This document shows, piece after piece, positions 26,718-51,733 of a stretch of DNA of 64,000 nt. The notes beneath the pieces are model-generated. The model was not told the origin of the DNA, searched no databases, and was given only the letters and a program-made list of their open reading frames with translations. The stretch covers positions 1,249 through 65,248 of the forward strand of contig PAAR01000029.1 of assembly GCA_002699085.1 (NCBI GenBank), written 5' to 3'. The DNA is from Micavibrio sp. (lineage in GTDB: Bacteria; Pseudomonadota; Alphaproteobacteria; Micavibrionales; UBA9664). The position numbers were made by a program, and so were the translations under genes. The stretch's first letter is position 1. The number at the start of each line of letters is the position of its first letter.

Positions 26718-26757
26718 AGTATTTCTCCTTTTCTATTACGCCCTAATTCATTAAATT

Positions 26758-27762: not shown

Positions 27763-27958
27763 CTTATCCCTTTTCACACTCTCATTCGTATTTATATAAA
27801 ACACGATAATTATACGTTATTTTCACGCAAAAAAAAGCTCTGAAAATAAATCCTCATTACATAAGCTTTTCACAAAGCCTACACCCTATGAAGAATTTTA
27901 GACATAAAACATTAATAAACAATTAAATCTTGTTCATTTTTATATCTATTACACTAAA

Positions 27959-31200: not shown

Positions 31201-31227
31201 ATTAAAAGGATTCTATATTATCTGTTA

Positions 31228-32325: not shown

Positions 32326-32443
32326 TGGTTTTGCTAAAGCTGACAGCCCTTAATGTTTTCTTATGTTGGTATGTATTACACGCTCCAAAATAGCCCTGTT
32401 GATAGGGGGTTGGCAAGCTTTTTTATGAAAGAACTATCTGTAC

Positions 32444-36759: not shown

Positions 36760-37782
36760 TTAAAAAAGACCAGTTTCGCCTAAACCACTATCATCTGTTA
36801 AAGGCACAGGTGCTGCATCATTAAGGGGTGTCGTTGCACGTGGTGCATTGGTTGGTGCTGTCATATTAGCACCTGGAAAACCCGAAAATTGCGCTTCTAA
36901 ATCACCTAAAGACGTCGGAATTTCACGTGGCACGGGTGCTTCATTTCTATTAAGAGGCGCAGGGTCAAGTCGGATGATTTCTCCTGCTTTCGTCACTTCC
37001 ATTCGGCCCGGTTGTACTTTTGTCACACGCGACCCATCAGGCAGCGTTTCATCAACCTTAACTGTACGACGAAAATCGCCATTTTCTTTACTGCCTAAGA
37101 CAGCCTCACAAATACCTGAAAGACAAAAAATTTCTATCCACTCGTAATTAGATGTTACTGCCACGGGTTTTTTCTTCAATGAAGATGACATATCACCTTT
37201 GGCCGCTTTTTCAATCACAGCATCAAGCGCACTTTGTGCTGTTTCATTCGAGTTCAGATTTGGCCGCAACGCATTTTGCAACGCCGCAACTTCATCGACA
37301 GCTGATGCTTTCTGAGCTTTTTGTTCATCTAATTCTTTTAAACGCTGTTCTAATACATCTTCTGTCCCAGGGTATACCTCTGGATAAGCATTAAAACACG
37401 GTACATTAGCCGGCACTTGCTCACATAAACCACGTGGTGGCTGCGGTGTCGTGTAATTTACACCAATACTGGTATAAGCCTTTTGAATCTCACTCACTTG
37501 TTTTTGCCAAGTAATGAGGTTCTCAATTAAAGCAATCTGATATTGCAATGTAATTTTGTCTGCTAAATATTTATTCTGAATCTTGTATTCAGTAAAATTC
37601 TCGGCGTTTAAAACATTGTCTCGATTAAGCTCAGCTTCAATAGGTGGTACTGAAATATCAGGTAATTTTGTTGTAAGACGTTTACTATTCTGAGCATAGG
37701 CATCAGCACTACATAATACCGCCATAACAGCAATAGAACATACTGAAAATTTAAACCATTTTTTATGCCAATGAATATTCAT
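36760..37782 (-). CDS. secreted coiled-coil protein, last gene of pilus operon (PilP-like C-terminal domain?)
   Basis: Signal peptide ...VLCSADAYAQ. The C-terminus VKVDETLPDGSRVTKVQPGRMEVTKAGEIIRL loosely parallels the C-terminus of the PilP-like ORF at 46157. Confidence 0.55.
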   Translation of the reverse strand: MNIHWHKKWFKFSVCSIAVMAVLCSADAYAQNSKRLTTKLPDISVPPIEAELNRDNVLNAENFTEYKIQNKYLADKITLQYQIALIENLITWQKQVSEIQKAYTSIGVNYTTPQPPRGLCEQVPANVPCFNAYPEVYPGTEDVLEQRLKELDEQKAQKASAVDEVAALQNALRPNLNSNETAQSALDAVIEKAAKGDMSSSLKKKPVAVTSNYEWIEIFCLSGICEAVLGSKENGDFRRTVKVDETLPDGSRVTKVQPGRMEVTKAGEIIRLDPAPLNRNEAPVPREIPTSLGDLEAQFSGFPGANMTAPTNAPRATTPLNDAAPVPLTDDSGLGETGLF

Positions 37783-37802
37783 GAAAATTATTATACGTGT
37801 AT

Positions 37803-39215
37803 TTACGGATTAATAAAACAGCCATCATCACAATTACCAAAATTATTGAAGGTCACATTGCCCTTATTCTCAATATCAATTGCTGACAGCGTATTGTTGA
37901 TAGTGGTCGTTTCACTTAATGTATCAATTGTCGCCAAACTACCTGCCCCATGATCAAATGATGCAGGGCCTGCGGTGGCTGGGTTATCTTGCACAACCAA
38001 TGTATCGCCACGAATCTCCCGTTGCAGGTTAAGTTGTAATGTATTTGGATTGGCGGCATTATTAATTAAGTTACTTACCGCCATACCGGCAACCGAATCC
38101 ACGTTTAAAGCACCGCCATTAAGGTTAACTGTGCCTGACACAAGATTCTCCGCATTAAATTCATTGGTTGTTACACGTTCAACTTGAAGCTCCTCGGTAG
38201 TCATAGACTGACCAATTTCCAGAGTATTTTGAACGGCCAATTCACTGCGTCCGACGCCATAAGCCGAACGAGTTGCAGGCGTTAAAATCGTATCGCCCAA
38301 TGCAAAGCCTTGCGCCCGCACCTGCCCATCTACCGCAAAATTACCATTAATGTCAGTCACGCCGCCAACATAAGCCGATCCTTGCACAATCATATCCTGC
38401 GTAACAGACAAATCTCCCGCAACATTAATATTATCGACCCCCACAAGATTATTACTCGCCATATTTAAATCAGAATTCATCACATGTAACTCAGGACGTG
38501 TGAATTGCGGTGTACGATACAAATAATCACCAAAAACATCTTCTTCATTAATGTATGAATAATGCGCAATATAGGCTTCATCTGTTGAAATACCTGTTGC
38601 TGTTGCGGCTGTGTGCCAGCTTGTACCTGCCATATCGGCAAAATTAACATGCCAAATGCCGAAAATCCCACGAATAGGGTCATTCGCAGCGACTAATACA
38701 TCATCATAATAAAGACCGCCTTGGCCACCCATTAACTCAGCCGTAGGCTTAGCACGGTCTGTTGAAATAGGGTCTTCAGAAAGAATTAAAATATCCAAGG
38801 CTCTAGTGGCGGCAGTATCTGCCACCAATACATATATCTCCAAATTAGTCTTTAAAGGACTATAGGCACTGGCATTTTGTGCAATAACAGAGCTTGGCTC
38901 AAGACCCAAGCCAACATCACCTGCCGTTAAAAAAGTAAATGGTATTTCATAAACACCCGCCGTGGTAAATCCAGGATTAACAGCGCGTAAATAAATAGCG
39001 TCGAACATTACTGGGTCTTTCAACATTTCCTCAGTCGCCGTTGCAATCTGCTCAATATGCTCTGCCGCGTTACCTGCAAGTTCATCTCTGGCTAAATTTT
39101 GTAAAGCAATAGATAGCCCAATCAACAATGTTGTCGCCACAATCAATGAGAGCAGCAATTCCAACAGCGTTAAACCAGACTCATGATGTATGTTGTTGTA
39201 TCCCTGTTTTAGCAT
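37803..39215 (-). CDS. giant pilin-headed protein 3 (PilV-like putative pilus tip adhesin)
   Basis: Prepilin N-terminus MLKQGYNNIHHESG/LTLLELLLSLIV (Glu5 present). Motif LYRTPQFTRPELHVMNSDLNMASNNL, an N/G/V/T-rich repetitive C-terminal half and a terminal Cys pair CDDGC. Confidence 0.7.
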   Translation of the reverse strand: MLKQGYNNIHHESGLTLLELLLSLIVATTLLIGLSIALQNLARDELAGNAAEHIEQIATATEEMLKDPVMFDAIYLRAVNPGFTTAGVYEIPFTFLTAGDVGLGLEPSSVIAQNASAYSPLKTNLEIYVLVADTAATRALDILILSEDPISTDRAKPTAELMGGQGGLYYDDVLVAANDPIRGIFGIWHVNFADMAGTSWHTAATATGISTDEAYIAHYSYINEEDVFGDYLYRTPQFTRPELHVMNSDLNMASNNLVGVDNINVAGDLSVTQDMIVQGSAYVGGVTDINGNFAVDGQVRAQGFALGDTILTPATRSAYGVGRSELAVQNTLEIGQSMTTEELQVERVTTNEFNAENLVSGTVNLNGGALNVDSVAGMAVSNLINNAANPNTLQLNLQREIRGDTLVVQDNPATAGPASFDHGAGSLATIDTLSETTTINNTLSAIDIENKGNVTFNNFGNCDDGCFINP

Positions 39216-40714
39216 GGATCACCACCTGATGTCTGACAGAATACTTTTGTACCGACACCCATCGATTTTGTTACATTCGTCGTCCCTAAAACGTTCATGT
39301 TGCCAGATACATCTAAAGCCCGAGTAACACGCAAATCACTAATGTTGGTATTTGTATCTTCAATAATAGCCTGTAAAACAACAGACCCTGCGGCATTAAC
39401 TGTTTCAAAGGTATTCGTAGCAGCCCCATTTCCAACCATCTGGAAGGCACCGGCATCAACATTAATCGGCTGAGAGCCTGATGCTGCGTTCATATTCATC
39501 GTAAAGGCTGTCACTTTACCAAATTGCGCAGGATCAGCACCCGGTGCCGCTTTACTCACGATAACATCTTGGAATTCTGCTGATGTAAAGGTAACGGCCG
39601 TATTACCTGACCCTTCAACAATAATATCTTCTGCAACAACCGCACCTGTATAAGCCGGTGCCACTGCCGATACATCAAGAAAATCGACATCATTTTGCAC
39701 AAGGATAGCGGGATTTGTAGCGTCCGAGAAATTGACAACCATATTACCGCCGACAATATCACACCCTGCACCAACAACGCCGCCACTGCCGTCAAATGCA
39801 CAACCAGACCCATCAGGACCAATAACAGCATGGTTAATTGATACAGCATTATTAAATTGCGCCATTTGTGAAATATTGAGTGCATTGGCAAAAGTACCCT
39901 CCGTGAAACCTTGTGCCAAAATTTCAGTATTGCCAGCCACCTCCAAACGATCGACAGTCATCGCTTTGGCACCTGTTAAACTATAATTATTCATATCAAG
40001 ATTAGCTTGCATAACATTCGCATCGACAGCTGTCGCTATAGGAATCTTATACAAAACATCACTATTCATAGATTCAGCCTGCGAAATCCTGCCATACGCC
40101 GCCAAATAACCGCCTTCATCCGCATCTGGAACAGAAGTACCCGCCGCGACAAATGGCGCTCTATTGATGCTCCATTGACCAGAAAGACTTGTAATATCGT
40201 TGGGCGTGATAATGCCGCTTGAATAACCCAGTTTAGCACCACCGTAACTCGCAATTTTACGCAAACGTGCATCTGGTATATATGCCGTTCCAGCTGCTGG
40301 ATCTTCACTAATAGTCAAAACTTCAATCGTTAAACCATTTGTAAAATTAGTCCCTAAATTACGAATATAAACAGTAATATCTTGCTGAAACCTATTCGTT
40401 TCTTTAAAGCCTGCCGCTAAAAAATTATCTGTCTTCAATGTTGCTAATGGCACTTCGCCAATATCATTGGTATTAGGAATATTAACAGTCACAATATCCG
40501 AGAAATTAGCGGCAACATAATTTTCTGCAGCTTGCTGTACATCAAGCATTTGAGCTGCAATACGCTGGTTCGAGACACGTACAGCACTATCTTTCAGAAT
40601 AGCCGTTGCTGCTATGCCAACTAATGCCAGAACGCCTACAACGAGCAGAAGCTCTATCAAAGTAAAGCCCTTCTCTCTTTTTAATCGACCTAAATTGCAC
40701 ATTCTCTTATCCAT
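39209..40714 (-). CDS. giant pilin-headed protein 2 (PilV-like putative pilus tip adhesin)
   Basis: Prepilin N-terminus ...RLKREKG/FTLIELLLVVGVLALVG. Motif LYKIPIATAVDANVMQANLDMNNYSL and a terminal Cys pair CQTSGGDPC. TAATG overlap with the upstream ORF. Confidence 0.7.
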   Translation of the reverse strand: MDKRMCNLGRLKREKGFTLIELLLVVGVLALVGIAATAILKDSAVRVSNQRIAAQMLDVQQAAENYVAANFSDIVTVNIPNTNDIGEVPLATLKTDNFLAAGFKETNRFQQDITVYIRNLGTNFTNGLTIEVLTISEDPAAGTAYIPDARLRKIASYGGAKLGYSSGIITPNDITSLSGQWSINRAPFVAAGTSVPDADEGGYLAAYGRISQAESMNSDVLYKIPIATAVDANVMQANLDMNNYSLTGAKAMTVDRLEVAGNTEILAQGFTEGTFANALNISQMAQFNNAVSINHAVIGPDGSGCAFDGSGGVVGAGCDIVGGNMVVNFSDATNPAILVQNDVDFLDVSAVAPAYTGAVVAEDIIVEGSGNTAVTFTSAEFQDVIVSKAAPGADPAQFGKVTAFTMNMNAASGSQPINVDAGAFQMVGNGAATNTFETVNAAGSVVLQAIIEDTNTNISDLRVTRALDVSGNMNVLGTTNVTKSMGVGTKVFCQTSGGDPC

Positions 40715-42747
40715 TAAAACGGTGTCCCCGGGTCAATATCTTCAATTTCAGGACAATCACCTGAACAAACTGCCTCAGGATCGCTACCACTAGCACGCTG
40801 TATATTTGTCAAACCTGAAAAGACAGTATCACCAAACACCTGAACACCCTCGTCCGATACAACATTATCTGCTGTTAATGTTTGGCCATTAGCGACCGTT
40901 AAACGACCCATGATTGTTTCATAGCTATCTGGGCCGATTGTTGCCGCCCCATACAAACCACTACCCTGATCGCCCAATACAAAATTTTCAACATTCAAGC
41001 CGTTGGAAAAATTTGCTGACTGAGCGTTAATATTATTACCGTTCACACGGAAGTCACGTACTGTTAAGCCAATATTATCGCTCGTTGATAAGAGTGAGGG
41101 GTCTATATTCATCCCTTCTGGTAATAAAATACTGTTTAATCTGACTACCGTTTGACCCGATGCCTTGGCCGCATCAGCAGAAAGAACCTGCCCATCAACT
41201 GTCGTTCCTTCAGCAATACCAATATTTATTGTGGCATTCGGTGCTTGTAATTCAGGCGTAATAATATTGGCTTGTGAGGCTAATAAATTACCCGATATAC
41301 GCATATAAGATGTACCGCCAGAGCCTGTACTAACACTACCTTGTACATTCACATTCTGGTTAAAATAAGCTTGCTGAATCGGCTGAATATAATTGAAATC
41401 AGGATCATTAAATATTTTAACGTTACTATCAACATTGAGTGAACCACCAAGCGCCACGACATCATCAATATCTCTGTTGCCCGCAATAGCATCAATATTA
41501 ACAGAATCCTCAATACCATTATACGTTTCACCTGCAACAACCACACCTGTAGGCGAACCATCCAAGGTTACACTAACATCCCTTGAGGTAGCGCCATCAA
41601 TAGCTCTATCACGTTGATCTGCCGCTATAATACGCTGAAGCGTTAAATTAGATATATTCATGATATTGCGACGATTATCTGCAAATGTTAATGGGTTATC
41701 TCGTATCGTTGGACACAATCTTGAATCAACCTTTTGAATCCCCCCCGCACCATCATCTTCATTGAAAGCAATTGTGTTTTCGCCACCACCATCACCATAA
41801 TAATTTGGATCACCTACATCCTCTATTGCCACATTTGCTTTACAATTCGCATCCACAACATCACCCATATATAAATCTGTAAGCATTGTCGCATAGGTAG
41901 TATTTTCTGGTTGTGGGAAACGCATAACAGCACGCTCATCAAAACGTACAGACTTCCATGCAGGGATAAGCATTTCACCTGGTTGGAATGCTGCGCCTGT
42001 TAAATTATTAAAATCAGCATCGCTTGTACACCCTGTATCCCATGCTGAGACAGCCGGTGTGCCATTACAATTATCAGAAATATTCACCCCTGCACCGTTA
42101 AATAATGGCGCCGAAACAGGTACTTCTAAATTCTGCAAAACGCGTGATAAACGTATGGCATCACCTGCACTTACAGCTGGCGACCCGCCTAATGTTACAT
42201 AGGCTGTTGCAACAGTTGTTGCTAAATTTGAGTCCCCATCAATAGGTGAGTTTGCTGCATACACAGTAATAGGCTGACGTAGAATCGTGCTTTCAGTTAA
42301 ATCGACCGCATTCGCATCCTGATTAACAAAACTAATCGGTAAATAACCTGCCGCAACTAATTGCGCCACAGTAATTTGTTGAGGTGCGCCCGCTGCATTA
42401 ATATCTAACGCTTGCTTATTGAACTGAGCATCTAATATACCATCCCCATTTTGATCGATCGCATTGGCGATCATATAAGCTAAATCTCTTGGCGTATCTG
42501 GAATATTATCCGCATTTGTATCTTCTACAAATTGTGACAAAGAATTATTACGTACCATAAGTCTTGCAGCCTGTGCGATCTGCTTTATCTGCCATGCCAC
42601 AGCCCGTAAGGTACGTTGATCCCTAGCATCCTTATTTGCGGTTGCAATAAAAGCAATAATAAAGGCAAAAGCGATCGTAATCACAAGCATCACAGCCAGT
42701 GAAAAACCTGATTCTTTCTTTCTGCATTGCTTAATCTGATTTAGCAC
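40714..42747 (-). CDS. giant pilin-headed protein 1 (PilV-like; lacks Glu5)
   Basis: N-terminus ...CRKKESG/FSLAVMLVITIAF, where position 5 is Val rather than Glu. Motif VMRFPQPENTTYATMLTDLYMG and a terminal Cys pair CSGDC. 677 aa. Confidence 0.65.
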   Translation of the reverse strand: MLNQIKQCRKKESGFSLAVMLVITIAFAFIIAFIATANKDARDQRTLRAVAWQIKQIAQAARLMVRNNSLSQFVEDTNADNIPDTPRDLAYMIANAIDQNGDGILDAQFNKQALDINAAGAPQQITVAQLVAAGYLPISFVNQDANAVDLTESTILRQPITVYAANSPIDGDSNLATTVATAYVTLGGSPAVSAGDAIRLSRVLQNLEVPVSAPLFNGAGVNISDNCNGTPAVSAWDTGCTSDADFNNLTGAAFQPGEMLIPAWKSVRFDERAVMRFPQPENTTYATMLTDLYMGDVVDANCKANVAIEDVGDPNYYGDGGGENTIAFNEDDGAGGIQKVDSRLCPTIRDNPLTFADNRRNIMNISNLTLQRIIAADQRDRAIDGATSRDVSVTLDGSPTGVVVAGETYNGIEDSVNIDAIAGNRDIDDVVALGGSLNVDSNVKIFNDPDFNYIQPIQQAYFNQNVNVQGSVSTGSGGTSYMRISGNLLASQANIITPELQAPNATINIGIAEGTTVDGQVLSADAAKASGQTVVRLNSILLPEGMNIDPSLLSTSDNIGLTVRDFRVNGNNINAQSANFSNGLNVENFVLGDQGSGLYGAATIGPDSYETIMGRLTVANGQTLTADNVVSDEGVQVFGDTVFSGLTNIQRASGSDPEAVCSGDCPEIEDIDPGTPF

Positions 42748-42804
42748 AATATTTAGCCCTTTTCCCTATATCTATAGTACACCATAAAAGGGTTAAAATT
42801 TAGT

Positions 42805-42840
42805 GTAAAAAACCCTTGAAAATAAGGATTCTCAAGGGTT
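42805..42840 (-). terminator. putative intrinsic terminator/attenuator after major pilin gene
   Basis: On the minus strand: CCCTTGA-(12 nt loop)-TCAAGGG followed by TTTTTT. It lies in the 124-nt gap between pilS and the first PilV-like gene. Confidence 0.5.
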
Positions 42841-42871
42841 TATGACAATTTTTTAATAAAGGGACGTTAAA

Positions 42872-43411
42872 TTAGATAAATGTCCAAGCAATTGTGTTTG
42901 TTGCACCTGCTTCACAGCTTCCCTGCACATCAGAAACAGTTGGGTCTGTGTACGTATCGCCCTGAATCGTTACATCAATAAAGTCCGAATCAGAAGACGG
43001 TGTAAAGGCTGTACCTAACTGAACACATGCCTCTTGAGGTAAATTAACTAAAGATATCACAAAAGTTGCCGCATCTGCTGCACCCACTTCGACAGATATA
43101 TCATTACCCCATGGGTCACGTACTTGACCTGTAGCCGCATCAATAACATTCCGAGCAGGAAAGACACCTGCCTGTGCTGCGATAATACTTAAATCAGCCC
43201 CTGTTGAGCCATATGTTGATTGATTCTGGTAAAGCGTTTGAATACCAATTTTTGATGAATTCAACAATCTGACAGCAGAACTAACATTATTACCTTGTGT
43301 CACAATTCTGTACGTCGCAAGACCTGCCAAAAGCAACAAAGCACCTACGCCAATAACAAGTAAAAGCTCTAGCAAAGAGAAACCCTTTTCTTGTGATGGG
43401 TGATATTTCAT
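42872..43411 (-). CDS. pilS: type IV (IVb-like) major prepilin
   Basis: 179 aa. Leader MKYHPSQEKG then FSLLELLLVIGVGALLLLAGLA (class III signal, Glu5). Two Cys residues in the C-terminal region could form a D-region disulfide. Confidence 0.85.
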   Translation of the reverse strand: MKYHPSQEKGFSLLELLLVIGVGALLLLAGLATYRIVTQGNNVSSAVRLLNSSKIGIQTLYQNQSTYGSTGADLSIIAAQAGVFPARNVIDAATGQVRDPWGNDISVEVGAADAATFVISLVNLPQEACVQLGTAFTPSSDSDFIDVTIQGDTYTDPTVSDVQGSCEAGATNTIAWTFI

Positions 43412-43458
43412 AATTTAACTCCTAAATTTTAATCTTATGTATCAATAATATAACGTAA

Positions 43459-44532: not shown

Positions 44533-44535
44533 ATA

Positions 44536-46110
44536 CTACCCTCGATCAGGTACGGCAAAAGGTCCAACAATACGCTCGGCATCAACAGGATCTACTTGAC
44601 CTGCCATCACACGATCCACCATTTGTTCGTTCATCGTACGGCCATTTAAGTGAGTCAACCAATACCGTTCTGCAGAACGTTTGTCGTCCTTTTTCACAAA
44701 ATTCATAAAATCATCATCTGGCAAAATAATCTCACCAACCAAGCTTCTTCCTACATAGCCAGCCCCACGACCACAGGATTCACAGCCATGTGGATTACGA
44801 CGACGCAAACGCTCAATCGGTATTTGCACTGATTCCAAACGAGACATCAGATTAAGATTAAGCTCATTCTCTTTGATAGGCGTTGAACAAGATGGGCACA
44901 GAACTCTGACAAGACGCTGGGAGATAAGGCCTGTCATCAAACTCGGATCACCGAGTTTGTAACTTTCAACCTTCAAGTCACGCAAACGAAACGGTATCGT
45001 AATCGCATCATTCGAGTGAAGTGTCGTCCATACTTGGTGACCTGTCATCGCCGCTTCAAAGGCAAGCTGAGCTGAGGCGGGGTCACGAATCTCACCGATC
45101 ATCAAACGATCAGGGTTCGACCGCAGTGATGCGGCGATCGCTTTGGTAAAAGCCGCCGAACGCTGTTCTGCCGTTGAAGCATTAACAACAGGCATCTGCA
45201 CCGCCCCTGGAATAGGATATTCAGGTGGATCCTCAACCGTATAAATTGCGATATTATAACTATGCTCTTGTAAAATAGAGATAATATTACGCTGCAACGT
45301 TGTTGATTTACCATGACCTGTCGGCCCTGCTACAATGTTAATACCAAAGGGCTTAGAGCGTAAATACTCAAAATCTTCTAAATGCTCTGGCGTAAAACCA
45401 AGTGCGCCCACATCACCCGCTGTCTTATCATCCGTGCTGTAAAGCAAACGCATAATCATCGCCCGACCGTTATATACTGTCGGGTTGAACTGAAGACGCA
45501 TAGAGATCACACCTTCAGGCAGTTGTAAATCTTTACGATTAGAAATACGTGCGCCCTGATATTCATAGGGCTGATAGTTCACATCCGAGGCATCAGCCAT
45601 CGCAAAAGCTGCCGCACAGAAACTATGGCCATATTCAGGTGGCCACTCAGCAATCTGCGTCATCGACCCGTCAATACGTGCTCTGACCAAACAAGAAGAT
45701 TCATAAACCACAACGTGTACGTCTGATACACGACGTTTAGCCATATCCCCTATAAGAGATAGCACCTCACGACGCATTCTCGCCTCATCTTGACGGCCTC
45801 TCGTATCCATAATCCCTGACGCATCCGTGTAACAAAGCTGTACACGGGTAATATCAACGACTTCCATATCAGGCTCGCCAAATCCACCCATGCGAATCTC
45901 AGCCAAAAGACTCAAGACTTTAGGATTATTGACATGCGATTTAGAAACAAAGAACTTACCATCCGTAAAGTAAGCAGCAATTTGACGTAGCTCCTCACCA
46001 CGATCAAAAGGGCCACCCTGCACCGTTAAAGGTAAACGATCATCCCACTCTTTAAGCTTACCGCTTGTGGCTCTATCTTTCGCTTTTCCTGTTGCTGTTA
46101 ATTCAACCAT
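44536..46110 (-). CDS. pilQ: type IV pilus assembly ATPase (GspE/PilB family; R64 PilQ-like)
   Basis: Walker A GPTGHGKST, Asp/His boxes (MIGEIRD, TGHQVWTTLHSN) and the tetracysteine motif CPSC...CESCG. Confidence 0.9.
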   Translation of the reverse strand: MVELTATGKAKDRATSGKLKEWDDRLPLTVQGGPFDRGEELRQIAAYFTDGKFFVSKSHVNNPKVLSLLAEIRMGGFGEPDMEVVDITRVQLCYTDASGIMDTRGRQDEARMRREVLSLIGDMAKRRVSDVHVVVYESSCLVRARIDGSMTQIAEWPPEYGHSFCAAAFAMADASDVNYQPYEYQGARISNRKDLQLPEGVISMRLQFNPTVYNGRAMIMRLLYSTDDKTAGDVGALGFTPEHLEDFEYLRSKPFGINIVAGPTGHGKSTTLQRNIISILQEHSYNIAIYTVEDPPEYPIPGAVQMPVVNASTAEQRSAAFTKAIAASLRSNPDRLMIGEIRDPASAQLAFEAAMTGHQVWTTLHSNDAITIPFRLRDLKVESYKLGDPSLMTGLISQRLVRVLCPSCSTPIKENELNLNLMSRLESVQIPIERLRRRNPHGCESCGRGAGYVGRSLVGEIILPDDDFMNFVKKDDKRSAERYWLTHLNGRTMNEQMVDRVMAGQVDPVDAERIVGPFAVPDRG

Positions 46111-46156
46111 TTATCTATTGTACCTTATTTAACTCAATGATAGCTACGTCGATTTA

Positions 46157-46741
46157 TTAACGTGCCCATTGTAAGTCAACTTTTCCTTTACCACCAAGGG
46201 TCACACCGCTCCTTGAAATTGACTTAACTGTGTAACCATCTGAAAGGGCATCCCCATTACGAACATTGGCAATTTCACCGTCTTTACTTGTGATACGTGC
46301 ACGCAAATTATTGTGAATGCCGTAAATATCATTAATTAACCACGGGGTTCTTGTGTCTTCGGCAATCTCGACATCTGCATTTTTGTCACGACTATAATCT
46401 TCACTCATATCATCCAAACCAAGATCATTAGCCGATATTGGTGGCAAAGCAGCCAGAGCAGCGTCATTCGGCATGGCTGGCATAGAGGATGGGCTATTAA
46501 TACCCAATAAAGAATCTGTATTTTTTGCAGACAGTTCATTCAATTGCTCAAGCAACTCAGCGCGCTTTAAACAAAGTGCAAAACGCTCAATATCAGACTG
46601 TACGCTCGCTAAGTCATTCGGCGTTTGTTTTGATGCCACATTAGGGCTCGGGCAAAGGTCATCACCCAAACTCTGTGCTTGAACGGCCTGCCCGGCACAT
46701 AAAAACACTATTAAAAAAGCTGCTATTATTAATTTTTTCAT
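46157..46741 (-). CDS. pilP: type IVb pilus biogenesis protein, PilP-like
   Basis: Signal peptide and small size. C-terminal beta-domain ...ANVRNGDALSDGYTVKSISRSGVTL. It sits between the PilO-like gene and the ATPase, as in the R64 pil operon. Confidence 0.5.
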   Translation of the reverse strand: MKKLIIAAFLIVFLCAGQAVQAQSLGDDLCPSPNVASKQTPNDLASVQSDIERFALCLKRAELLEQLNELSAKNTDSLLGINSPSSMPAMPNDAALAALPPISANDLGLDDMSEDYSRDKNADVEIAEDTRTPWLINDIYGIHNNLRARITSKDGEIANVRNGDALSDGYTVKSISRSGVTLGGKGKVDLQWAR

Positions 46742-48105
46742 TGTGGCACGCCTCCAGCCATACGTAGGATTATATTGGTTTTATACGTCCAATCCTGCCT
46801 GTTTAAATTATATTCTATCATCTCAAAGCTCAAACCTGGAATATTAAAATATTCTGCTGCCTTTGTCGGCGGGGTACTTGTTTTAAGTTCGACAGACAAA
46901 AAGGGTGGTTTTTTTGTTTCTGATTCATTTGTAATAAGCGTCGTTACAGCACTTTGCGCACGACGACGCACAGATGATGCAGTTTTCTTATCTTCATCCG
47001 GCACACGATATTGCACATTCATTTGCCCTAAATCGCCAAAACGGTCATTTACAAGTAAAATAGCACGATCACGATCAAGTGGTATATTCTGTTCTTTATA
47101 TTGATCGAGACTTGGCAATAATTTTGTAGCTGTGAACAACCTTGCGCCATCATACGTATGCGTCACACCTGGTCCAAAACGAGAAATATAGGGCCTAATA
47201 TTATCTAGGTCACCCCCATTGCTATTCCAAGAGACCGTTACAATCCGCCCATCACATTTAATTGATTCAATTGTCCACATCGGCAAAGGTAGAACGATAT
47301 CTTCCATACCTTTCAAACATGCAAAAACAACGAAGCTAGGTGTTGGCAAGGACACGTCTCCAAAACGTAACAATGGATTAAGTTGCTGGCCTACCTCTGG
47401 TCTTGGCGGCGGTGTCAATTCGTTCGCTGTGCCCAATGCAAGCTGTTTTGCTTGCCGTGGTTGTGGCAATAAAGAAGGTAAGATTTGTGAGGTCAACGTG
47501 CCTAAAAATAAAATACCTACCAGGATAGCCGCCAAAACAACGGCGATATCTTTGTTACGGCGACCCCCAAAAAGTGCATCGAGATTTGCAGGCTGTAAAG
47601 TAGCATTGGGAATCTCATCAAAGATCTTATTTAAGCTGACTTCACCAGCATTATCTTCGAATTCCCAGTTATCAGGTACAAAAGCACGTGGCCAACGATA
47701 GCCCGCCGCTTTTTGCAAAAAGAATTGATACGCCTCTTCTTCATCATCAAACAGAATGTCGCCATCTGGCGCAATTGCATCGGCATGAACAGCGACATAC
47801 CACCAGCCATTTTCAGCCACAAACACACCATGCCATTCACCAACCATTACATCAGCAGCCGTTGAGGCAGCAGCAGGTAATCCACGCTTATGACCCTGCT
47901 CTAAATAGCCGATACCATTTTGATTAACAACTGTATTTCTAATAACATAAAAGTCGGCGCCAACTTGTTTGGCCCGCTGACGTGGTGCTTTTGGGTCTTC
48001 TTCATCTTCCGAGGTCAACCAAAGCAAGCCGACAGCATAATCCTGTCCAGCATAGCGCATAATGCCAAGTTTATCTTTTTGTTTCTGGACTGCTTCGCTG
48101 CTCAT
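46738..48105 (-). CDS. pilO: type IVb pilus biogenesis protein, PilO-like (bitopic)
   Basis: 455 aa: cytoplasmic N-domain, one TM (IAVVLAAILVGILFLGTLT) and a periplasmic C-domain. The position after the secretin matches R64 pilO. Assigned mainly by synteny. Confidence 0.5.
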   Translation of the reverse strand: MSSEAVQKQKDKLGIMRYAGQDYAVGLLWLTSEDEEDPKAPRQRAKQVGADFYVIRNTVVNQNGIGYLEQGHKRGLPAAASTAADVMVGEWHGVFVAENGWWYVAVHADAIAPDGDILFDDEEEAYQFFLQKAAGYRWPRAFVPDNWEFEDNAGEVSLNKIFDEIPNATLQPANLDALFGGRRNKDIAVVLAAILVGILFLGTLTSQILPSLLPQPRQAKQLALGTANELTPPPRPEVGQQLNPLLRFGDVSLPTPSFVVFACLKGMEDIVLPLPMWTIESIKCDGRIVTVSWNSNGGDLDNIRPYISRFGPGVTHTYDGARLFTATKLLPSLDQYKEQNIPLDRDRAILLVNDRFGDLGQMNVQYRVPDEDKKTASSVRRRAQSAVTTLITNESETKKPPFLSVELKTSTPPTKAAEYFNIPGLSFEMIEYNLNRQDWTYKTNIILRMAGGVPQ

Positions 48106-48251
48106 GCGTCTCTGATGTCTTTGTACTTAAATATTTTACGAATCTTAACCAATATGAATATTCTACCAGCGGATAGACAAAACATCTACACCCTATTATA
48201 CGGCAAACGCATATATCTAAAGCACATTAAGAGCCATTTATTTAAAAATGA

Positions 48252-49811
48252 TTAAAAACCTTGTTCAGAAACACTTAATGGCTCTTCAGGTAAAACCTCT
48301 GCCGAAATAAGAAGAACCGTAATATTTCTGCCACGGTCATAATTACGTGTGCCGCCCAACAACCAACTTGGCGTACGCGCATCTGTAATCCCTGACTGTC
48401 TACGCTCAAAGCCAGCCAAAACAAGCGTTTCACCTTGTGACAACACCGCATTTTGTAAGAAACCAGTCGTGTCAATTTGCGGCAATTGAATTTGTTGCGT
48501 GTCTGTACCAAATGTCTGGAAAGGCTGCTCCGCATCAGTAATGGAAATCGCTAAGCGCATCAAAATACGATTATTCTCGATCACACGTGGCAATATATTC
48601 ATCGTTAAACCAACATCAATTGTACCAGGTTCAAGTGATGTCCCTGTACTATCACCACTCGCCGAAGCCGAAATACGCTCAAGATAGGTGATCTGACGAC
48701 CAATTTGTAGCGGTGCTGGCTGATCTGACAGCGTTACGATAGAACCAGAATTAGCGATCGTTACATGTGATACATTTTCTGCAGCACGTACAATAGAAGC
48801 AAAATCATCTATCGTTCCAGCTACTTGTCCGTTAATAGCCTGAGACTGCCGCAAAATACCCGCTGACAATGAACCATCAATCGAGCTTAGCTGATATGGC
48901 TGCTTATCGATCACATCTTGCAGCTCTAAAAACAGGTCAAAGCCATATTCAGAAGAATTTTGCACTTGAACATTTAACACCTTCACAGCCACCGCAACAC
49001 GGCGTAGACGTAATGAGTTTTGTTGACGCAAATATTCTTCCACACGATCGACCAAGGTTGGCGAAGCGCTCACAGTAATTGTCCCAGTTGAACGTGACAA
49101 TGAAATACGGCCACGACTATCGAGAATATTATTCAGAACTTCTTCGATCTCATCCCAAATTTGAATTTCTGTCTTATCGTCAATCGTTACAGACGGTAGA
49201 CTTCCGCCACCTGAAGCAACACCCGTTTCAAGCGAACCGCTTAAATCAATGCCTGTGCCAAGCGCATGCAACATGAATGTTTTTGTTACTTCTTGGAATA
49301 TTTTAATCACGCCATTTTCATAGCTCCAGCCAACGTCAAACGCATCGGCAATTTGATTAAGAAGCTGTGTTAATGATCCTTGCCATACAACACGTCCACC
49401 AGTTACCTGCAAGCCATCCGATGGTAAGAAACGTTGATCCAGAGTGTTGCTACCACGGTCAAACACTACACGAATATTTGTTACCTTTTGAATCTCTGAA
49501 CGAAGCTGCGGCAATGAAAGTGGCTCTGCAAAGGTTACCACAACACTGTCTTTTGCATTAAACTTTGCTGGCAGCGGATCGCCTTTAGCCAATGCCACCG
49601 CCTTACCGCCATACCATGGACGGTCGTCAACCATTAAAGATTTAGACAATTCTTTTGTTGGCTCAATTTGACGCAACGCTTTTTCGGCAATGACACCATC
49701 TTTATCAAGATCGCCTTTAATTGCTGCATGTTGAGCGCAAGAGCTCATAAAAAAAGCGGCAAAAAGAAAGGTAAATATTTGAAATGTCTTTGTGAATTTA
49801 GATAATGTCAT
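48252..49811 (-). CDS. pilN: type IVb pilus secretin lipoprotein (R64 PilN / BfpB-like)
   Basis: Lipobox FFMSSCA. C-terminal secretin domain (…GETLVLAGFERRQSGITDARTP...GRNITVLLISAEV). Confidence 0.8.
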   Translation of the reverse strand: MTLSKFTKTFQIFTFLFAAFFMSSCAQHAAIKGDLDKDGVIAEKALRQIEPTKELSKSLMVDDRPWYGGKAVALAKGDPLPAKFNAKDSVVVTFAEPLSLPQLRSEIQKVTNIRVVFDRGSNTLDQRFLPSDGLQVTGGRVVWQGSLTQLLNQIADAFDVGWSYENGVIKIFQEVTKTFMLHALGTGIDLSGSLETGVASGGGSLPSVTIDDKTEIQIWDEIEEVLNNILDSRGRISLSRSTGTITVSASPTLVDRVEEYLRQQNSLRLRRVAVAVKVLNVQVQNSSEYGFDLFLELQDVIDKQPYQLSSIDGSLSAGILRQSQAINGQVAGTIDDFASIVRAAENVSHVTIANSGSIVTLSDQPAPLQIGRQITYLERISASASGDSTGTSLEPGTIDVGLTMNILPRVIENNRILMRLAISITDAEQPFQTFGTDTQQIQLPQIDTTGFLQNAVLSQGETLVLAGFERRQSGITDARTPSWLLGGTRNYDRGRNITVLLISAEVLPEEPLSVSEQGF

Positions 49812-49913
49812 CTGTCTATCTATTGTTTTACTTAACGAATCTTATCTTAGCTTACACAGGGTTACGGCTTCCGACAAACAGAATTTTTAGATTTTTCACT
49901 TTAAATAATATGT

Positions 49914-51320
49914 TTAGCGAATAATATGACGTGTTTCGATCACTATAACAGCAGGACCATCTGGCTCATTTGGATGCAATCTTGCGATCGGGCGAGGCTG
50001 CGCCTCACTGAAACCCTTCAGCAAAACTTCAACAACTTCTTCAAATGTGCCCTGCAAACTGACATCAGACTCAAGAGGGTAGTCGTAATCAGCTCGCCAA
50101 TATAACTGAACACCCGCCTCTTTCGACCATGATTCAAGGACTTGGCGTAGTGTTAAGTTTCGTGGCGCTGTCCATGTTTTGATCGTTGTATCATAATCAA
50201 CCATCTCAACAGAAGAACGCTCATTTAGGTTATCAAGCGCATAAAGTGCTGACGAAACTGTTTTGTTCGACCCAAAATTTTCAAGTGCTGAATGACGTGT
50301 TGCACTTGGCATAATTTGTACGGTTTTTCCTGCAATTGACGCTGTTAAGTTTTTCGGTGCCAACATAGAATCCAGCACCTGATTCCAAGGCTTGCCACCT
50401 TCCCACGAAACAGTTTGGGATACATCGACCCCCTCAGCGTAGATCAAAGAATAATCACTTGGAACAATTTGTGATAAAGCAATCGGCAAAGGCATACCTT
50501 TACCAAACCCAACAGCAACAGCATATGATCCAGCTGGTGCGTCCATTTGTTGTGAGACAATAGGTTGCATGCGTTGAGGCGCTGCCAATGTCGCTGTTTG
50601 TACTGACGCACGCGGCATTGAATTATTCATATAAGGTCCAGAAAATCCTGTTGCAGGAATAGGCGCAGATGCCGAAGATGGTACTGGACGACCAAATAAA
50701 AATCCTTTTTGCTCTGATGGTTTTGCTGTTAAGCCAAATGGAAACGGGTTTAATGAGACGATAGAACGTTTCTTCTCTTCTTCTGCACGGCGGCGTGAAA
50801 TTGACGGTGCAAAAGCATCACCTTCTACAGCAACTTCGGAATAAACAGGGATACTGGTCACCGCTTGCGGTGCAGCCATTTGCTGCATTTGCATAGGCTG
50901 TTGCGCAGGGGCTTCCATTACAGGCTGTTGCGCCATTTGCGCCCTTAGAGGCTGTGGCTCTGTTGATGAAAACGGCATAGAGGCTGGCTGCATCATTTGC
51001 GGTTGCGGTTGATACTGTTGTTGTGGCTGTTGCATAACAGGAGCCATTTGCATTTGTTGAACTGGCTGTTGGTACGCTTGCTGAGATTGCTGTCTGTAAT
51101 AATTATCTTGAGCACGAGATGGTGCCATCACAACAGGCAACGTATTTTGTACAATTGGCTGTGTCGGTGGAATGCGATTAATTTGCTGGCCCATTTGGCC
51201 CGATTGATTGTAGTTTGCCATTGGCGCAACAAACTCAAAACCAGCCTGCGCTTCATTTAGATTTATGCTCGCAGCACTTACCACTAAACCCATTACCAGA
51301 AAAACTTTTGAAAAACGCAT
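49914..51320 (-). CDS. pilL: PilL-like pilus protein with Q/P/M-rich spacer and TcpQ-like C-terminal domain
   Basis: Signal peptide and a long low-complexity Q/P/M region. C-terminus WTAPRNLTLRQVLESWSKEAGVQLYWRADYDYPLESDVSLQGTFEEVVEVLL is typical of the TcpQ/PilL domain. Confidence 0.55.
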   Translation of the reverse strand: MRFSKVFLVMGLVVSAASINLNEAQAGFEFVAPMANYNQSGQMGQQINRIPPTQPIVQNTLPVVMAPSRAQDNYYRQQSQQAYQQPVQQMQMAPVMQQPQQQYQPQPQMMQPASMPFSSTEPQPLRAQMAQQPVMEAPAQQPMQMQQMAAPQAVTSIPVYSEVAVEGDAFAPSISRRRAEEEKKRSIVSLNPFPFGLTAKPSEQKGFLFGRPVPSSASAPIPATGFSGPYMNNSMPRASVQTATLAAPQRMQPIVSQQMDAPAGSYAVAVGFGKGMPLPIALSQIVPSDYSLIYAEGVDVSQTVSWEGGKPWNQVLDSMLAPKNLTASIAGKTVQIMPSATRHSALENFGSNKTVSSALYALDNLNERSSVEMVDYDTTIKTWTAPRNLTLRQVLESWSKEAGVQLYWRADYDYPLESDVSLQGTFEEVVEVLLKGFSEAQPRPIARLHPNEPDGPAVIVIETRHIIR

Positions 51321-51409: not shown

Positions 51410-51700
51410 CTAGCCGTAGTCAATCAGCTTGTTACGGCGCGTGTGCATAAGTGCTGGGCGGTGATTGCCGACAATCCAACTCCGCAAAGCCCGTAAAGCA
51501 GAAGGCAATGTATAACCATTACGCTCAACCACATGAAACACAAAAGTAATAATAGCGCATAGATACACTGTCCACCAACGCATATAAAGCAATACAACAA
51601 GAAATGTCGAAGCGGCCCGTGCATCAAGTGCAAAGAACTTCAACGGCTTCATTGAATTCCGCCAATGCCAATCGCCTTCTGTTTCGATATTATTTGCCAT
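51410..51700 (-). CDS. icmT: IcmT (R64 TraK-like) small T4BSS membrane protein
   Basis: 96 aa. HWRNSMKPLKFFALDARAASTFLVVLLYMRWWT...GYTLPSALRALRSWIVG matches my recollection of the IcmT/TraK pattern. It follows dotB as traK follows traJ. Confidence 0.7.
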   Translation of the reverse strand: MANNIETEGDWHWRNSMKPLKFFALDARAASTFLVVLLYMRWWTVYLCAIITFVFHVVERNGYTLPSALRALRSWIVGNHRPALMHTRRNKLIDYG

Positions 51701-51733
51701 AGGTTCTAGGATATCACGCTTTGGGATATGCTT

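What the first reader, a model, noticed from the sequence alone, without database searches (positions are those of the whole stretch)
36760..51320. Complete R64-thin-pilus-like type IVb pilus operon embedded inside the T4BSS locus, with no prepilin peptidase or shufflon recombinase
Read on the minus strand, the order is: PilL-like (TcpQ-like C-terminus), PilN secretin lipoprotein, PilO-like, PilP-like, GspE-family ATPase, GspF-family platform, major prepilin, three giant pilin-headed proteins, and a secreted coiled-coil protein. This is the pilL-N-O-P-Q-R-S...V order of the IncI thin pilus, which stabilises mating pairs. Here the operon lies directly downstream of icmT with only a 90-nt gap, so it may be co-transcribed with dotD-C-B-icmT. 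The window has no PilU-like prepilin peptidase and no Rci-like recombinase. The lytic transglycosylase (PilT in R64) has moved upstream of dotD.
Basis: partly seen in the sequence, partly recalled or inferred. Interest (0 to 1): 0.7.

Follow-up and report, generated by a model that had tools for sequence, protein, structure and literature searches.

The report
Chromosomal type IVb pilus in Micavibrio-like bacteria
A complete-looking operon for a thin adhesive (type IVb) pilus sits inside a Dot/Icm-type secretion gene cluster on the chromosome of a marine Micavibrio-like bacterium. The arrangement is conserved across that group, so the machinery probably serves cell-to-cell contact rather than plasmid mating.

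Summary
On the minus strand, 51320-36760 encodes PilL-like, PilN secretin, PilO2-type, PilP, a GspE-family ATPase, a GspF-family platform, a PilS/bundlin-type pilin, three large PilV-family minor pilins, and a last gene that is a second PilP-domain protein. The operon lies between icmT and dotI of a T4BSS whose gene order matches R64 traH-traU. The window holds no prepilin peptidase, Rci/shufflon, retraction ATPase, relaxase, coupling protein or DotA.

The interpretation needs correcting in three ways.
- The motor proteins are closer to BFP and to an alphaproteobacterial plasmid pilus than to R64.
- The locus is chromosomal, in a MAG that NCBI labels Micavibrio sp. It is syntenic in about 15 related species and all genes appear to be under purifying selection. 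It is therefore a domesticated system rather than a mating-pair pilus of a plasmid.
- Four related loci keep a short A24 peptidase directly after pilS. The peptidase is therefore probably missing here by loss.

New details:
- A terminator hairpin follows pilS in nearly all of the related loci examined.
- One minor-pilin family (V1) lacks Glu5 in all 81 members scored, which suggests a tip cap.

The best reading is an adhesive pilus that brings a relaxase-less T4BSS into contact with a target cell. That function is inferred. It is a new variant of a known kind.

The parts
54328..54744 (-). Small lytic transglycosylase (BfpH/PilT-type) upstream of dotD
   Evidence: PF01464 SLT, E 2e-9. It is 45% identical to BfpH of a BFP-like operon and 27% to R64 PilT. 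SLT-DotD adjacency is conserved in 13 related loci.
51410..54237 (-). First T4BSS block: dotD (53698-54237), dotC (52864-53697), dotB (51734-52885), icmT (51410-51700)
   Evidence: PF16816 DotD, PF16932 T4SS_TraI and T2SSE. PF28014 IcmT_2 comes from precomputed hits. DotB is 33% identical to R64 TraJ and DotC 29% to TraI.
49914..51320 (-). PilL-like accessory protein: signal peptide, Q/P/M-rich region, STN domain, TcpQ domain
   Evidence: PF07660 STN and PF10671 TcpQ, both above cutoff. Weak BLASTP matches to the Bosea TcpQ-family protein, BfpG and the R64 PilL C-terminus.
48252..49811 (-). PilN/BfpB-family secretin, probable lipoprotein (MSSC lipobox)
   Evidence: TIGR02520 is the best NCBIfam match (204 bits, below the equivalog cutoff of 288). 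The closest solved structure is BfpB at 153 bits, against 36 for GspD. The lipobox was read from the sequence.
46738..48105 (-). PilO2/BfpC-type inner-membrane assembly protein
   Evidence: PF06864 PAP_PilO, E 1e-14, covering 2-414 of 419 profile positions.
46157..46741 (-). PilP
   Evidence: TIGR03021 pilP_fam, 48.7 bits against a cutoff of 34.65.
44536..46110 (-). Pilus extension ATPase (PilQ/BfpD type)
   Evidence: PF00437, E 4e-67. BfpD scores 321 bits over the full length, against 174 for GspE and 173 for PilF. It is 44% identical to the Bosea plasmid ATPase, 38% to BfpD and 32% to R64 PilQ.
43459..44532 (-). GspF-family platform protein (PilR/BfpE type)
   Evidence: PF00482, two stretches. 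It is 31% identical to BfpE, 30% to the Bosea protein and 26% to R64 PilR.
42872..43411 (-). Major prepilin PilS; leader MKYHPSQEKG, mature N-terminus FSLLELLLV
   Evidence: PF08805 PilS, PF05307 Bundlin and N_methyl. The best PDB match is S. Typhi PilS, 1Q5F. The G|F[ST]LLELLLV motif is invariant in 31 orthologues.
42804..42847 (-). Hairpin followed by a U-run, just downstream of pilS (intrinsic terminator or attenuator)
   Evidence: Inverted repeat I2. The fold is -32 kcal/mol for the gap, z = -4.05. A hairpin with a T-run, different in sequence, follows pilS in nearly all of 31 related loci.
40714..42747 (-). V1: 677-aa PilV-family minor pilin that lacks Glu5 (G|FSLAV)
   Evidence: Prepilin motif read. 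Its N-terminal ~260 residues are homologous to the V2 family (hhalign 97.7%, E 1.5e-12). The AF2 pilin head is confident. None of 81 family members has Glu at +5.
39209..40714 (-). V2: 501-aa PilV-type minor pilin (G|FTLIE)
   Evidence: PF04917 Shufflon_N, 34.1 bits against a cutoff of 27.5, plus N_methyl. The AF2 pilin head is confident and the C-terminal half is low confidence.
37803..39215 (-). V3: 470-aa PilV-type minor pilin (G|LTLLE)
   Evidence: Shufflon_N at 24.7 bits, below cutoff. BLASTP matches to Bosea PilV and R64 PilV. Glu5 is conserved in orthologues.
36760..37782 (-). X340: second PilP-domain protein with a signal peptide, conserved Cys pairs, a P/A/S-rich tail and a C-terminal GLF
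   Evidence: Its family alignment A4 matches the PilP family A5 by hhalign at 97.4%, E 1e-11, over the C-terminal beta domain. No Pfam or PDB hit.
33294..36745 (+). Two paralogous secreted proteins of unknown function, lying between the pil operon and dotI
   Evidence: No Pfam, NCBIfam or PDB match. They are paralogues (BLASTP E 2e-24). Signal peptides were read.
21428..33139 (-). Second T4BSS block: dotI, dotH, dotG, dotF-like, traQ/dotE-like, a 130-aa membrane protein, dotN, traU/dotO, and two small ORFs
   Evidence: PF11393, PF12293 and TrbI. NF033900 DotG, NF038218 DotF, NF033883 TraQ and NF038221 DotN. The 995-aa protein is 27% identical to R64 TraU over 966 aa, E 4e-101.

Best explanation
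This is a chromosomal type IVb pilus operon of the BFP/R64 class. It belongs to a marine bacterium that NCBI labels Micavibrio sp., and it lies between icmT and dotI of a Dot/Icm-IncI-type T4BSS.

**Shown**
- The operon encodes a lipoprotein secretin with a TcpQ/STN accessory protein, a PilO2-type protein, PilP, an extension ATPase, a platform protein, a PilS/bundlin-type major pilin, three PilV-family minor pilins and a second PilP-domain protein.
- A terminator-like hairpin follows pilS.
- The window has no peptidase, shufflon or retraction ATPase.
- The operon is conserved, and its genes are under purifying selection, across many related species.

**Inferred**
- PilS is made in excess because of attenuation at the hairpin.
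- After cleavage by a prepilin peptidase encoded elsewhere, PilS polymerises through the secretin.
- The three large minor pilins form the tip. V1, which lacks Glu5, would be the outermost subunit, like GspK or PilX. Their fast-evolving C-terminal halves would act as adhesins.
- The pilus holds the cell against a target cell so that the adjacent relaxase-less T4BSS can engage it. This parallels the R64, TP114 and PAPI-1 pili, which bind recipient surfaces for conjugation. Here the target is more likely a prey or host cell than a mating partner.
For: - **Family assignments:**
- **Collinearity with R64 traH-traU:**
- **No relaxase, T4CP, DotA, peptidase or Rci:** none in the window, and 10 kb beyond each end is housekeeping. 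GC content is uniform.
- **Source and relatives:** the source MAG and its relatives are labelled Micavibrio or equivalent names.
- **Synteny:** the order SLT-dotDCB-icmT-pilL...X340 is conserved in about 15 species.
- **Selection:** pN is far below pS for every pil gene. dN rises from the motor proteins (0.12) to the V proteins (0.4-0.6).
- **Terminator:** a hairpin follows pilS in nearly all of 31 loci, with divergent sequence.
- **Cleavage motifs:** conserved in all four pilins. V1 has Glu5 in 0 of 81 members, while V2 and V3 keep it.
- **Homology:** V1 and V2 are homologous.
- **Peptidase loss:** four related loci carry an A24 peptidase after pilS, so processing is part of the system's biology.
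- **Precedent for the adhesin role:** PilV/type IVb pili act as adhesins in conjugation (PMC9045228, PMC5297154; found). Relaxase-less Dot/Icm-type T4SS have been reported in seven marine Micavibrionales (PMC9418006).
Against: - No expression, filament or binding data exist. Everything comes from MAGs.
- No prepilin peptidase could be located for this genome.
- Five related species have the pil operon with no T4BSS genes within the 5-10 kb of upstream flank held. The pilus therefore does not strictly need an adjacent T4BSS and may have an independent role.
- DotA, DotL and DotM were not found, so whether the T4BSS is complete is unknown.
- The lifestyle of these MAG lineages is unknown. The paper on the cultured predator M. 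aeruginosavorus ARL-13 reported no T4SS (PMC3189940).
- The C-terminal 'adhesin' halves of V1 and V2 were modelled at low confidence and have no significant structural match.
Confidence: 0.6

Rival explanations
1. It is the thin pilus of an integrated IncI-like conjugative element, and it stabilises mating pairs for DNA transfer.
For: - The gene order of both the pil and tra blocks matches R64.
- PilV homologues are present.
- Two related loci have an AAA_30/TraI-helicase-like gene after the last pil gene.
Against: - No NikB-like relaxase, TrbC/DotL coupling protein, TraY/DotA, integrase or Rci in 64 kb.
- 10 kb beyond each end is housekeeping.
- GC content is uniform.
- The same chromosomal neighbours recur in distant species: Bax1-I, and ccsA with a thioredoxin gene.
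- PilQ from these genomes forms one clade.
- A MacSyFinder survey classed the Micavibrionales systems as relaxase-less (PMC9418006).
Confidence: 0.12
2. It is a type IVb 'secretion pilus'. Its main role would be to export a soluble factor, as TCP exports TcpF and CFA/III exports CofJ. Candidate cargoes are X340 or the two neighbouring secreted paralogues.
For: - X340 and p523/p627 carry signal peptides and are encoded at or next to the operon's end.
- There is no retraction ATPase.
- That type IVb pili export operon-encoded factors is from my own knowledge of TCP and CFA/III. It was not tested here.
Against: - X340 carries a PilP-type domain, which is typical of periplasmic assembly components.
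- p523 and p627 are on the opposite strand and were not detected in other species' loci.
- The three PilV-type minor pilins point to adhesion.
Confidence: 0.1
3. The pilus works independently of the T4BSS, for example in surface or prey attachment or in aggregation like BFP. Its position inside the T4BSS cluster would then be a historical leftover.
For: - Five related species keep the whole pil operon, flanked by housekeeping genes, with no T4BSS genes within the 5-10 kb of upstream flank held.
- The motor proteins are closest to BFP, a non-conjugative adhesion and aggregation pilus.
Against: - icmT-pilL adjacency survives even where the rest of the T4BSS is rearranged (L035, L004, L021, L022, L032).
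- The full dotDCB-icmT-pil order is kept in about 15 species.
Confidence: 0.15
4. It is a decaying, non-functional remnant that has lost its peptidase.
For: The window has no peptidase, PilM or PilI-K genes, and no DotA, DotL or DotM.
Against: - All 11 ORFs are intact here and in many species.
- pN is far below pS for every gene.
- The cleavage motifs are invariant.
- The terminator is structurally conserved.
Confidence: 0.03

Closest known systems
IncI1 plasmid R64 thin pilus (pilI-pilV with shufflon and rci), next to the Tra/Trb T4BSS
   Same: - Same order: PilL, N, O, P, Q, R, S ... V.
- PilV homologues with the Shufflon_N region.
- No retraction ATPase.
- Physical linkage to a T4BSS whose gene order (traH-I-J-K ... 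traM-N-O-P-Q-R-T-U) is collinear.
   Different: - Sequence identity is low (PilQ 32%, PilN 23%, PilR 26%).
- PilI, J, K, M, PilU, the shufflon and Rci are absent.
- The SLT lies upstream of dotD instead of after pilS.
- There are three fixed PilV paralogues instead of one switchable gene.
- The pil operon sits between traK and traM, where R64 has nuc, sog and traL.
- The locus is chromosomal, with no relaxase or coupling protein nearby.
Bundle-forming pilus (BFP) of EPEC and BFP-like plasmid operons
   Same: - It provides the closest solved structures for the ATPase (BfpD, 321 bits) and the secretin (BfpB, 153 bits).
- BfpH is 45% identical to the SLT.
- BfpC, BfpE and BfpG counterparts are present.
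- Both have a lipoprotein secretin.
   Different: - BFP has a retraction ATPase (BfpF), its own peptidase (BfpP) and three small minor pilins (BfpI, J, K). It has no PilV-type adhesin and no T4BSS neighbour.
Type IVb pilus cluster on Bosea sp. RAC05 plasmid pBSY19_1 (alphaproteobacterial)
   Same: - It gives the best overall matches: ATPase 44%, secretin 26%, PilO2 26%, platform 30%.
- It has a TcpQ-family protein and one annotated PilV adhesin.
   Different: - It has a second, PilT-like ATPase and only one PilV.
- It is on a plasmid, next to replication genes.
- No Dot/Icm genes appear in the 29 kb examined.
Conjugative type IVb pili of IncI2 TP114 and of the PAPI-1 island
   Same: The working model is the same: a major PilS-type pilin with a minor PilV adhesin that recognises the partner cell's surface (PMC9045228, PMC5297154).
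   Different: Those pili serve elements that carry a relaxase. Here no DNA-transfer genes were found, and the adhesin set is three paralogues, one of them lacking Glu5.
Tip minor pilins without Glu5 (GspK of T2SS; PilX/PilK of type IVa pili)
   Same: V1 keeps the Gly-1 cleavage site but never has Glu at +5 (0 of 81). This is the signature of the subunit that caps the tip complex in those systems (from my own knowledge).
   Different: V1 is a PilV homologue, not a GspK-family protein. Its tip position is an inference.

Membership tests
Type IVb pilus machinery (BFP / R64 Pil / TCP class) | Secretin of the PilN/BfpB/TcpC lineage rather than GspD or PilQ | tested here: met
   TIGR02520 is the best match at 204 bits, against 81 for MshL and 37 for GspD. 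It is below the equivalog cutoff of 288. BfpB scores 153 bits against 36 for GspD and 27 for PilQ.
Type IVb pilus machinery (BFP / R64 Pil / TCP class) | Extension ATPase and platform nearest to type IVb homologues | tested here: met
   BfpD scores 321 bits over the full length, against 174 for GspE and 173 for PilF. BLASTP identities are 44% to Bosea, 38% to BfpD and 32% to R64 PilQ. In the NJ tree the clade is sister to the Bosea and BfpD sequences.
Type IVb pilus machinery (BFP / R64 Pil / TCP class) | Type IVb-specific accessory proteins (PilO2/BfpC, TcpQ/BfpG/PilL, PilP) | tested here: met
   PF06864, PF10671 and TIGR03021 all score above their cutoffs.
Type IVb pilus machinery (BFP / R64 Pil / TCP class) | Major pilin with the type IVb globular domain and a long leader | tested here: inconclusive
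   The globular domain matches PF08805 PilS and PF05307 Bundlin, and PDB 1Q5F. The leader, however, is only 10 aa and the mature N-terminus is Phe, which resembles type IVa pilins.
Type IVb pilus machinery (BFP / R64 Pil / TCP class) | Dedicated prepilin peptidase in the operon | tested here: not met
   None in the window. One is present directly after pilS in four related loci (PF01478, E about 1e-14).
Type IVb pilus machinery (BFP / R64 Pil / TCP class) | A filament is actually assembled | not testable with these tools
   This needs expression and microscopy.
IncI conjugative thin pilus (R64 type) | pilL-N-O-P-Q-R-S ... pilV gene order with a PilV adhesin | tested here: met
   Order established. 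Shufflon_N is above cutoff in V2.
IncI conjugative thin pilus (R64 type) | Shufflon (sfx repeats) with the Rci recombinase | tested here: not met
   No integrase-family ORF. tblastn with Rci gave E = 0.99. Only chance-level inverted repeats were found.
IncI conjugative thin pilus (R64 type) | Belongs to a conjugative element (relaxase NikB, coupling protein TrbC, oriT) | tested here: not met
   tblastn with NikB, TrbC, TrbA and TraY found nothing in the window. The flanks are housekeeping. The rest of the genome was not searched.
Dot/Icm-IncI type IVB secretion system | Core components DotB, C, D, F, G, H, I, N, O and IcmT | tested here: met
Dot/Icm-IncI type IVB secretion system | DotA/TraY, DotL/TrbC (coupling protein) and DotM/TrbA | tested here: inconclusive
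   Absent from the window and from 10 kb beyond each end. They may lie elsewhere in the genome, as in the two-region Legionella layout.
Type II secretion system | GspC, L, M and the pseudopilins GspG-K, with a GspD secretin | tested here: not met
   No such families were hit. Only weak N-terminal pilin matches appeared (GspH, E 1e-4). GspD scored 37 bits against a cutoff of 351.

The most novel reading that the evidence does not exclude
Micavibrio-like bacteria, relatives of an obligate epibiotic predator, may have domesticated an IncI-type conjugation machine together with its thin pilus as a contact-dependent attack or host-interaction device. The type IVb pilus, tipped by a hetero-oligomer of three PilV-derived adhesins capped by the Glu5-less V1, would capture the target cell. 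The relaxase-less T4BSS would then inject proteins into it. This would be a type IVB counterpart of the bacteria-killing type IVA systems, and a possible missing piece of how these cells attack their targets.
Probability: 0.25. Interest if true: 0.85.

Novelty: new variant of a known kind. Interest (0 to 1): 0.6.

Why it matters
Type IVb pili linked to T4BSS are known from IncI plasmids, where they pick out mating partners. Here the same pairing is fixed in the chromosome of a whole lineage related to a predatory bacterium, and no DNA-transfer genes were found in the window. If the pair works together, it shows how a conjugation apparatus and its partner-finding pilus can be repurposed as one unit for cell-cell attack or symbiosis.

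It would also give concrete candidate genes for target recognition (V1-V3) in a group whose contact mechanism is unknown. The genome paper on cultured M. aeruginosavorus reported no T4SS, and a 2022 survey only listed relaxase-less Dot/Icm-type systems in seven marine Micavibrionales.

Two smaller points:
- The Glu5-less V1 family is a previously undescribed minor-pilin family that could test ideas on how type IVb tips are built.
- The presence or absence of the peptidase among sister loci is a natural experiment on using a peptidase encoded elsewhere.

Tried and rejected
- **Near-identical DNA in plasmids:** no match.
- **Best E. coli matches to the ATPase:** these turned out to be BFP-like operons on IncF plasmids, not IncI plasmids. 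R64 itself was fetched for the comparison.
- **Solved-structure sequence searches** for V1, V2, X340 and p627: only the N-terminal pilin helix matched, or nothing did.
- **AlphaFold models of V1 and V2:** only the pilin heads are confident. The C-terminal halves are below pLDDT 50. Foldseek against PDB gave no hit at E <= 0.001. The adhesin fold therefore remains unknown, and the weak beta-helix hits were discarded.
- **Consensus promoter/terminator scan:** no enrichment, and it missed the pilS hairpin. It cannot settle co-transcription.
- **Shufflon search by repeats:** negative.
- **R64 TraV/W/X/E/F/G/L against the small unknown ORFs:** no significant match, so they stay unassigned.
- **M. 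aeruginosavorus ARL-13:** I tried to decide from the published gene table whether it has this locus. Only gene names and lengths are available, which is inconclusive.
- **Literature searches** linking Micavibrio with Dot/Icm or type IVb pili: nothing beyond one passing sentence.
- **T2SS or Tad identity:** rejected on family scores.

Full report

Yes. The minus strand from 51320 to 36760 carries eleven consecutive ORFs, with gaps from -7 to 146 nt. Family scans identify them as follows:
- a PilL-like protein with STN and TcpQ domains;
- a secretin whose best model is the PilN type IVB family;
- a full-length PAP_PilO (PilO2/BfpC) protein;
- PilP;
- a GspE-family ATPase and a GspF-family platform;
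- a pilin matching the PilS and Bundlin families;
- three large proteins with class III signal peptides, two of which hit the PilV 'Shufflon_N' region;
- a 340-aa protein with a signal peptide.

IcmT, DotB, DotC, DotD and a small SLT lie directly upstream. DotI, DotH, DotG, DotF-like, TraQ-like, DotN and a TraU/DotO homologue lie downstream. The icmT-pilL gap is 89 nt.

**2. Which kind of pilus?**

It fails.
- Among solved structures, the ATPase is closest to BfpD (321 bits, full length), against 174 for GspE and 173 for PilF.
- The secretin is closest to BfpB (153 bits), against 36 for GspD.
- The pilin's globular domain is closest to S. Typhi PilS.

Direct BLASTP against operons I fetched shows the machinery is nearer to a Bosea plasmid pilus and to BFP than to R64. 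For PilQ the identities are 44%, 38% and 32% respectively. For the SLT they are 45% to BfpH and 27% to R64 PilT. An NJ tree of the ATPase agrees. The operon is therefore type IVb in R64 gene order, but 'R64-like' is only loosely right.

**3. What is missing?**

- No major ORF of at least 90 aa in the window hits Peptidase_A24 or an integrase family.
- Six-frame tblastn with R64 PilU, BfpP, Rci, PilM and PilI-K finds nothing.
- Searches with a BfpF-type retraction ATPase hit only PilQ and DotB.
- The PilV region has no shufflon-type repeats.
- R64 NikB, TrbC (DotL), TrbA (DotM) and TraY (DotA) also find nothing.
- The 10 kb beyond each window end is housekeeping, for example the EF-Tu/EF-G/S7/S12 genes and the RNase E, def and fmt genes.

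**4. Context**

The T4BSS genes follow the same order as R64 traH-I-J-K ... traM-N-O-P-Q-R-T-U. In R64 the pil operon lies upstream of traE, and nuc, sog and traL sit between traK and traM. Here the pil operon and two opposite-strand unknown genes occupy that slot.

The flanks are chromosomal: cytochrome bd, ackA/pta, fabI, cytochrome c biogenesis, a DEAD helicase, Bax1-I and an ABC-F protein. GC content is even across the window.

**5. Whose genome?**

The exact proteins occur in NCBI MAG GCA_002358745.1 and in marine metagenomes. NCBI names them as hypothetical proteins of 'Micavibrio sp.'.

A scan of species-representative genomes returned 37 loci. Nearly all come from MAGs titled Micavibrio, Pseudobdellovibrionaceae, Bdellovibrionales (NCBI's placement of Micavibrio) or Alphaproteobacteria. 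PilQ identity to the window is 65-83% in 35 of them and 36-39% in the other two. Several sit on contigs of 1-1.8 Mb.

The order SLT-dotD-dotC-dotB-icmT-pilL-N-O-P-Q-R-S-V1-V2-V3-X340 is kept in about 15 of these species. There are three kinds of variation:
- In L035 the genes upstream of icmT are dotG and dotF, yet icmT-pilL stays adjacent.
- In five species (L011, L012, L013, L014, L024) the pil operon has no T4BSS genes within the 5-10 kb of upstream flank held. In L011 and L012, where the flanks were scanned, they are housekeeping genes.
- Some loci have fewer V genes.

Against the two closest species, synonymous sites are saturated. Even so, pN is far below pS for every gene. dN rises from 0.12 for PilQ to 0.36 for PilS and 0.4-0.6 for the V proteins. 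This is a maintained system with fast-evolving surface parts, not a remnant.

**6. The peptidase question**

Four related loci (L025, L028, L029, L033) encode a short A24 peptidase of 166-207 aa directly after pilS (PF01478, E about 1e-14). That is the same relative position as pilU in R64. These four loci fall in one subclade of the PilQ tree.

The cleavage motif is the same whether or not the peptidase gene is present: a basic leader, then G|F[ST]LLELLLV. The simplest reading is that the window's clade lost the peptidase gene and now relies on one encoded elsewhere. Cultured M. aeruginosavorus lists three leader-peptidase genes in its gene table. I could not search this MAG for one.

**7. 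New anatomical details**

(a) A 14-bp-stem hairpin followed by a U-run lies 25 nt after the pilS stop codon (42804-42847; z = -4.05). A hairpin with a T-run occupies the same spot in nearly all of 31 related loci, although the sequences differ. This is good evidence for a terminator or attenuator that raises the ratio of PilS to the downstream products.

(b) V1 has no Pfam hit, but its family is homologous to the V2 family over the N-terminal ~260 residues (hhalign 97.7%). A profile search of 1.84 billion representative proteins finds only 85 clusters at E <= 1e-30. In 81 members with a recognisable prepilin site, the +5 residue is L, I, V, S, F, A, M or R, and never Glu. V2 and V3 orthologues keep Glu5. 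In T2SS and type IVa pili, the subunit without Glu5 caps the tip (my own knowledge). I infer the same for V1.

(c) The AF2 models give confident pilin heads for V1 and V2. Their C-terminal halves are low in confidence and show short strands with a six-residue period.

(d) The last gene, X340, carries a PilP-type beta domain (hhalign 97.4%) and conserved cysteines. In 12 of 19 homologues it has a P/A/S-rich tail ending in LGxTGLF.

**8. Co-transcription**

Sequence alone cannot settle this. The consensus scan is uninformative. A conspecific strain has a clean ~780-bp insertion, carrying two opposite-strand ORFs, between dotB and icmT. Its icmT-pilL spacer is identical to the window's. This suggests that icmT-pil can be expressed without read-through from dotDCB.

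**9. Mechanism**

- *Shown:* the parts list, its class, its conservation, and what is missing.
- *Inferred:* a peptidase encoded elsewhere processes the pilins; PilS is made in excess; the three PilV-type proteins form the tip, with V1 outermost; and their variable C-termini bind a partner surface.
- *Inferred by analogy:* the pilus brings the neighbouring T4BSS into contact with a target cell. The analogy is to R64, TP114 and PAPI-1 (PMC9045228, PMC5297154). Because no DNA-transfer genes were found, and the lineage is related to an epibiotic predator, the target may be prey or a host rather than a mating partner.
- *Caveats:* some relatives keep the pilus without an adjacent T4BSS. DotA, DotL and DotM were not located. 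The lifestyle of these MAG lineages is unknown.

**10. Literature**

[quoted passage not shown] It describes an incomplete 'T2SS' and dispersed pil genes (PMC3189940).
- A 2022 survey lists relaxase-less Dot/Icm-type systems in seven marine Micavibrionales, in one sentence (PMC9418006).
- I found no paper describing a type IVb pilus linked to a T4BSS in this group. The library covers open-access papers only.

**11. Verdict**

This is a new variant of a known kind: a chromosomal type IVb pilus without a peptidase or shufflon, carrying three PilV paralogues, built into a relaxase-less T4BSS locus and conserved across a Micavibrio-like lineage.

Noticed in passing
window 33294-36745 (+): Two paralogous genes for signal-peptide proteins (627 and 523 aa; BLASTP E 2e-24). 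They have no Pfam, NCBIfam or PDB match and lie between the pil operon and dotI on the opposite strand. Between conspecific strains they are only 86-93% identical, while their neighbours are 98-100% identical. They were not detected in other species' loci.
   Followed up: partly
window 55929-56903 (-): A 324-aa secreted protein with a CPHC thioredoxin motif and a weak match to R64 TrbB, the DsbC-like conjugation protein (E 0.008). It lies upstream of the SLT and dotD. It is probably a disulfide isomerase for the many Cys-bearing pilus or T4BSS parts.
   Followed up: partly
L002 3560-4400 (conspecific strain; corresponds to window ~51700-51734): A clean ~780-bp insertion between dotB and icmT carries two opposite-strand ORFs (109 and 97 aa, no Pfam hit). 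The icmT-pilL spacer is identical to the window's.
   Followed up: partly
L020 16839-17915 and L030 16869-17999: A gene of 358-376 aa with AAA_30 and TraI-helicase-associated domains directly follows the X340 homologue in two related species. It is a possible trace of DNA-processing functions.
   Followed up: no
L019 12597-13832: Two tandem copies of the major pilin gene pilS occur in one related species.
   Followed up: partly
window 36760-36800 (C-terminus of X340) and 12 of 19 homologues: The extreme C-terminus carries a conserved LGxTGLF-COOH motif after a long P/A/S-rich tail. Shorter homologues lack both the tail and the motif. Its function is unknown.
   Followed up: partly
window 57830-58915 (-): A GT29 (sialyltransferase-family) glycosyltransferase gene lies next to the locus. 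A conspecific strain (L047) has a 586-aa unknown ORF in its place.
   Followed up: no
M. aeruginosavorus ARL-13 gene table (PMC3189940, supplementary file 4): The table lists tandem large prepilin-type genes GMV_742-744 (391, 692 and 377 aa) and the cluster GMV_901-905. All but GMV_901 of that cluster are expressed 7-16 times more highly in attack phase. A third secretin/ATPase cluster (GMV_1930-1939) has a short leader peptidase. Whether any of these are homologous to V1-V3 or to this operon could not be tested.
   Followed up: no
window 1-2440 versus 21000-64000: In GCA_002358745.1 the cytochrome bd end of the window lies on a different contig (DEPL01000025) from the pil locus (DEPL01000049). 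The window therefore comes from a more contiguous assembly of the same population.
   Followed up: partly
window 10159-14369 (+): Three ORFs (365, 365 and 625 aa) with no Pfam hit lie directly upstream of the ResB/CcsA cytochrome c biogenesis genes.
   Followed up: no
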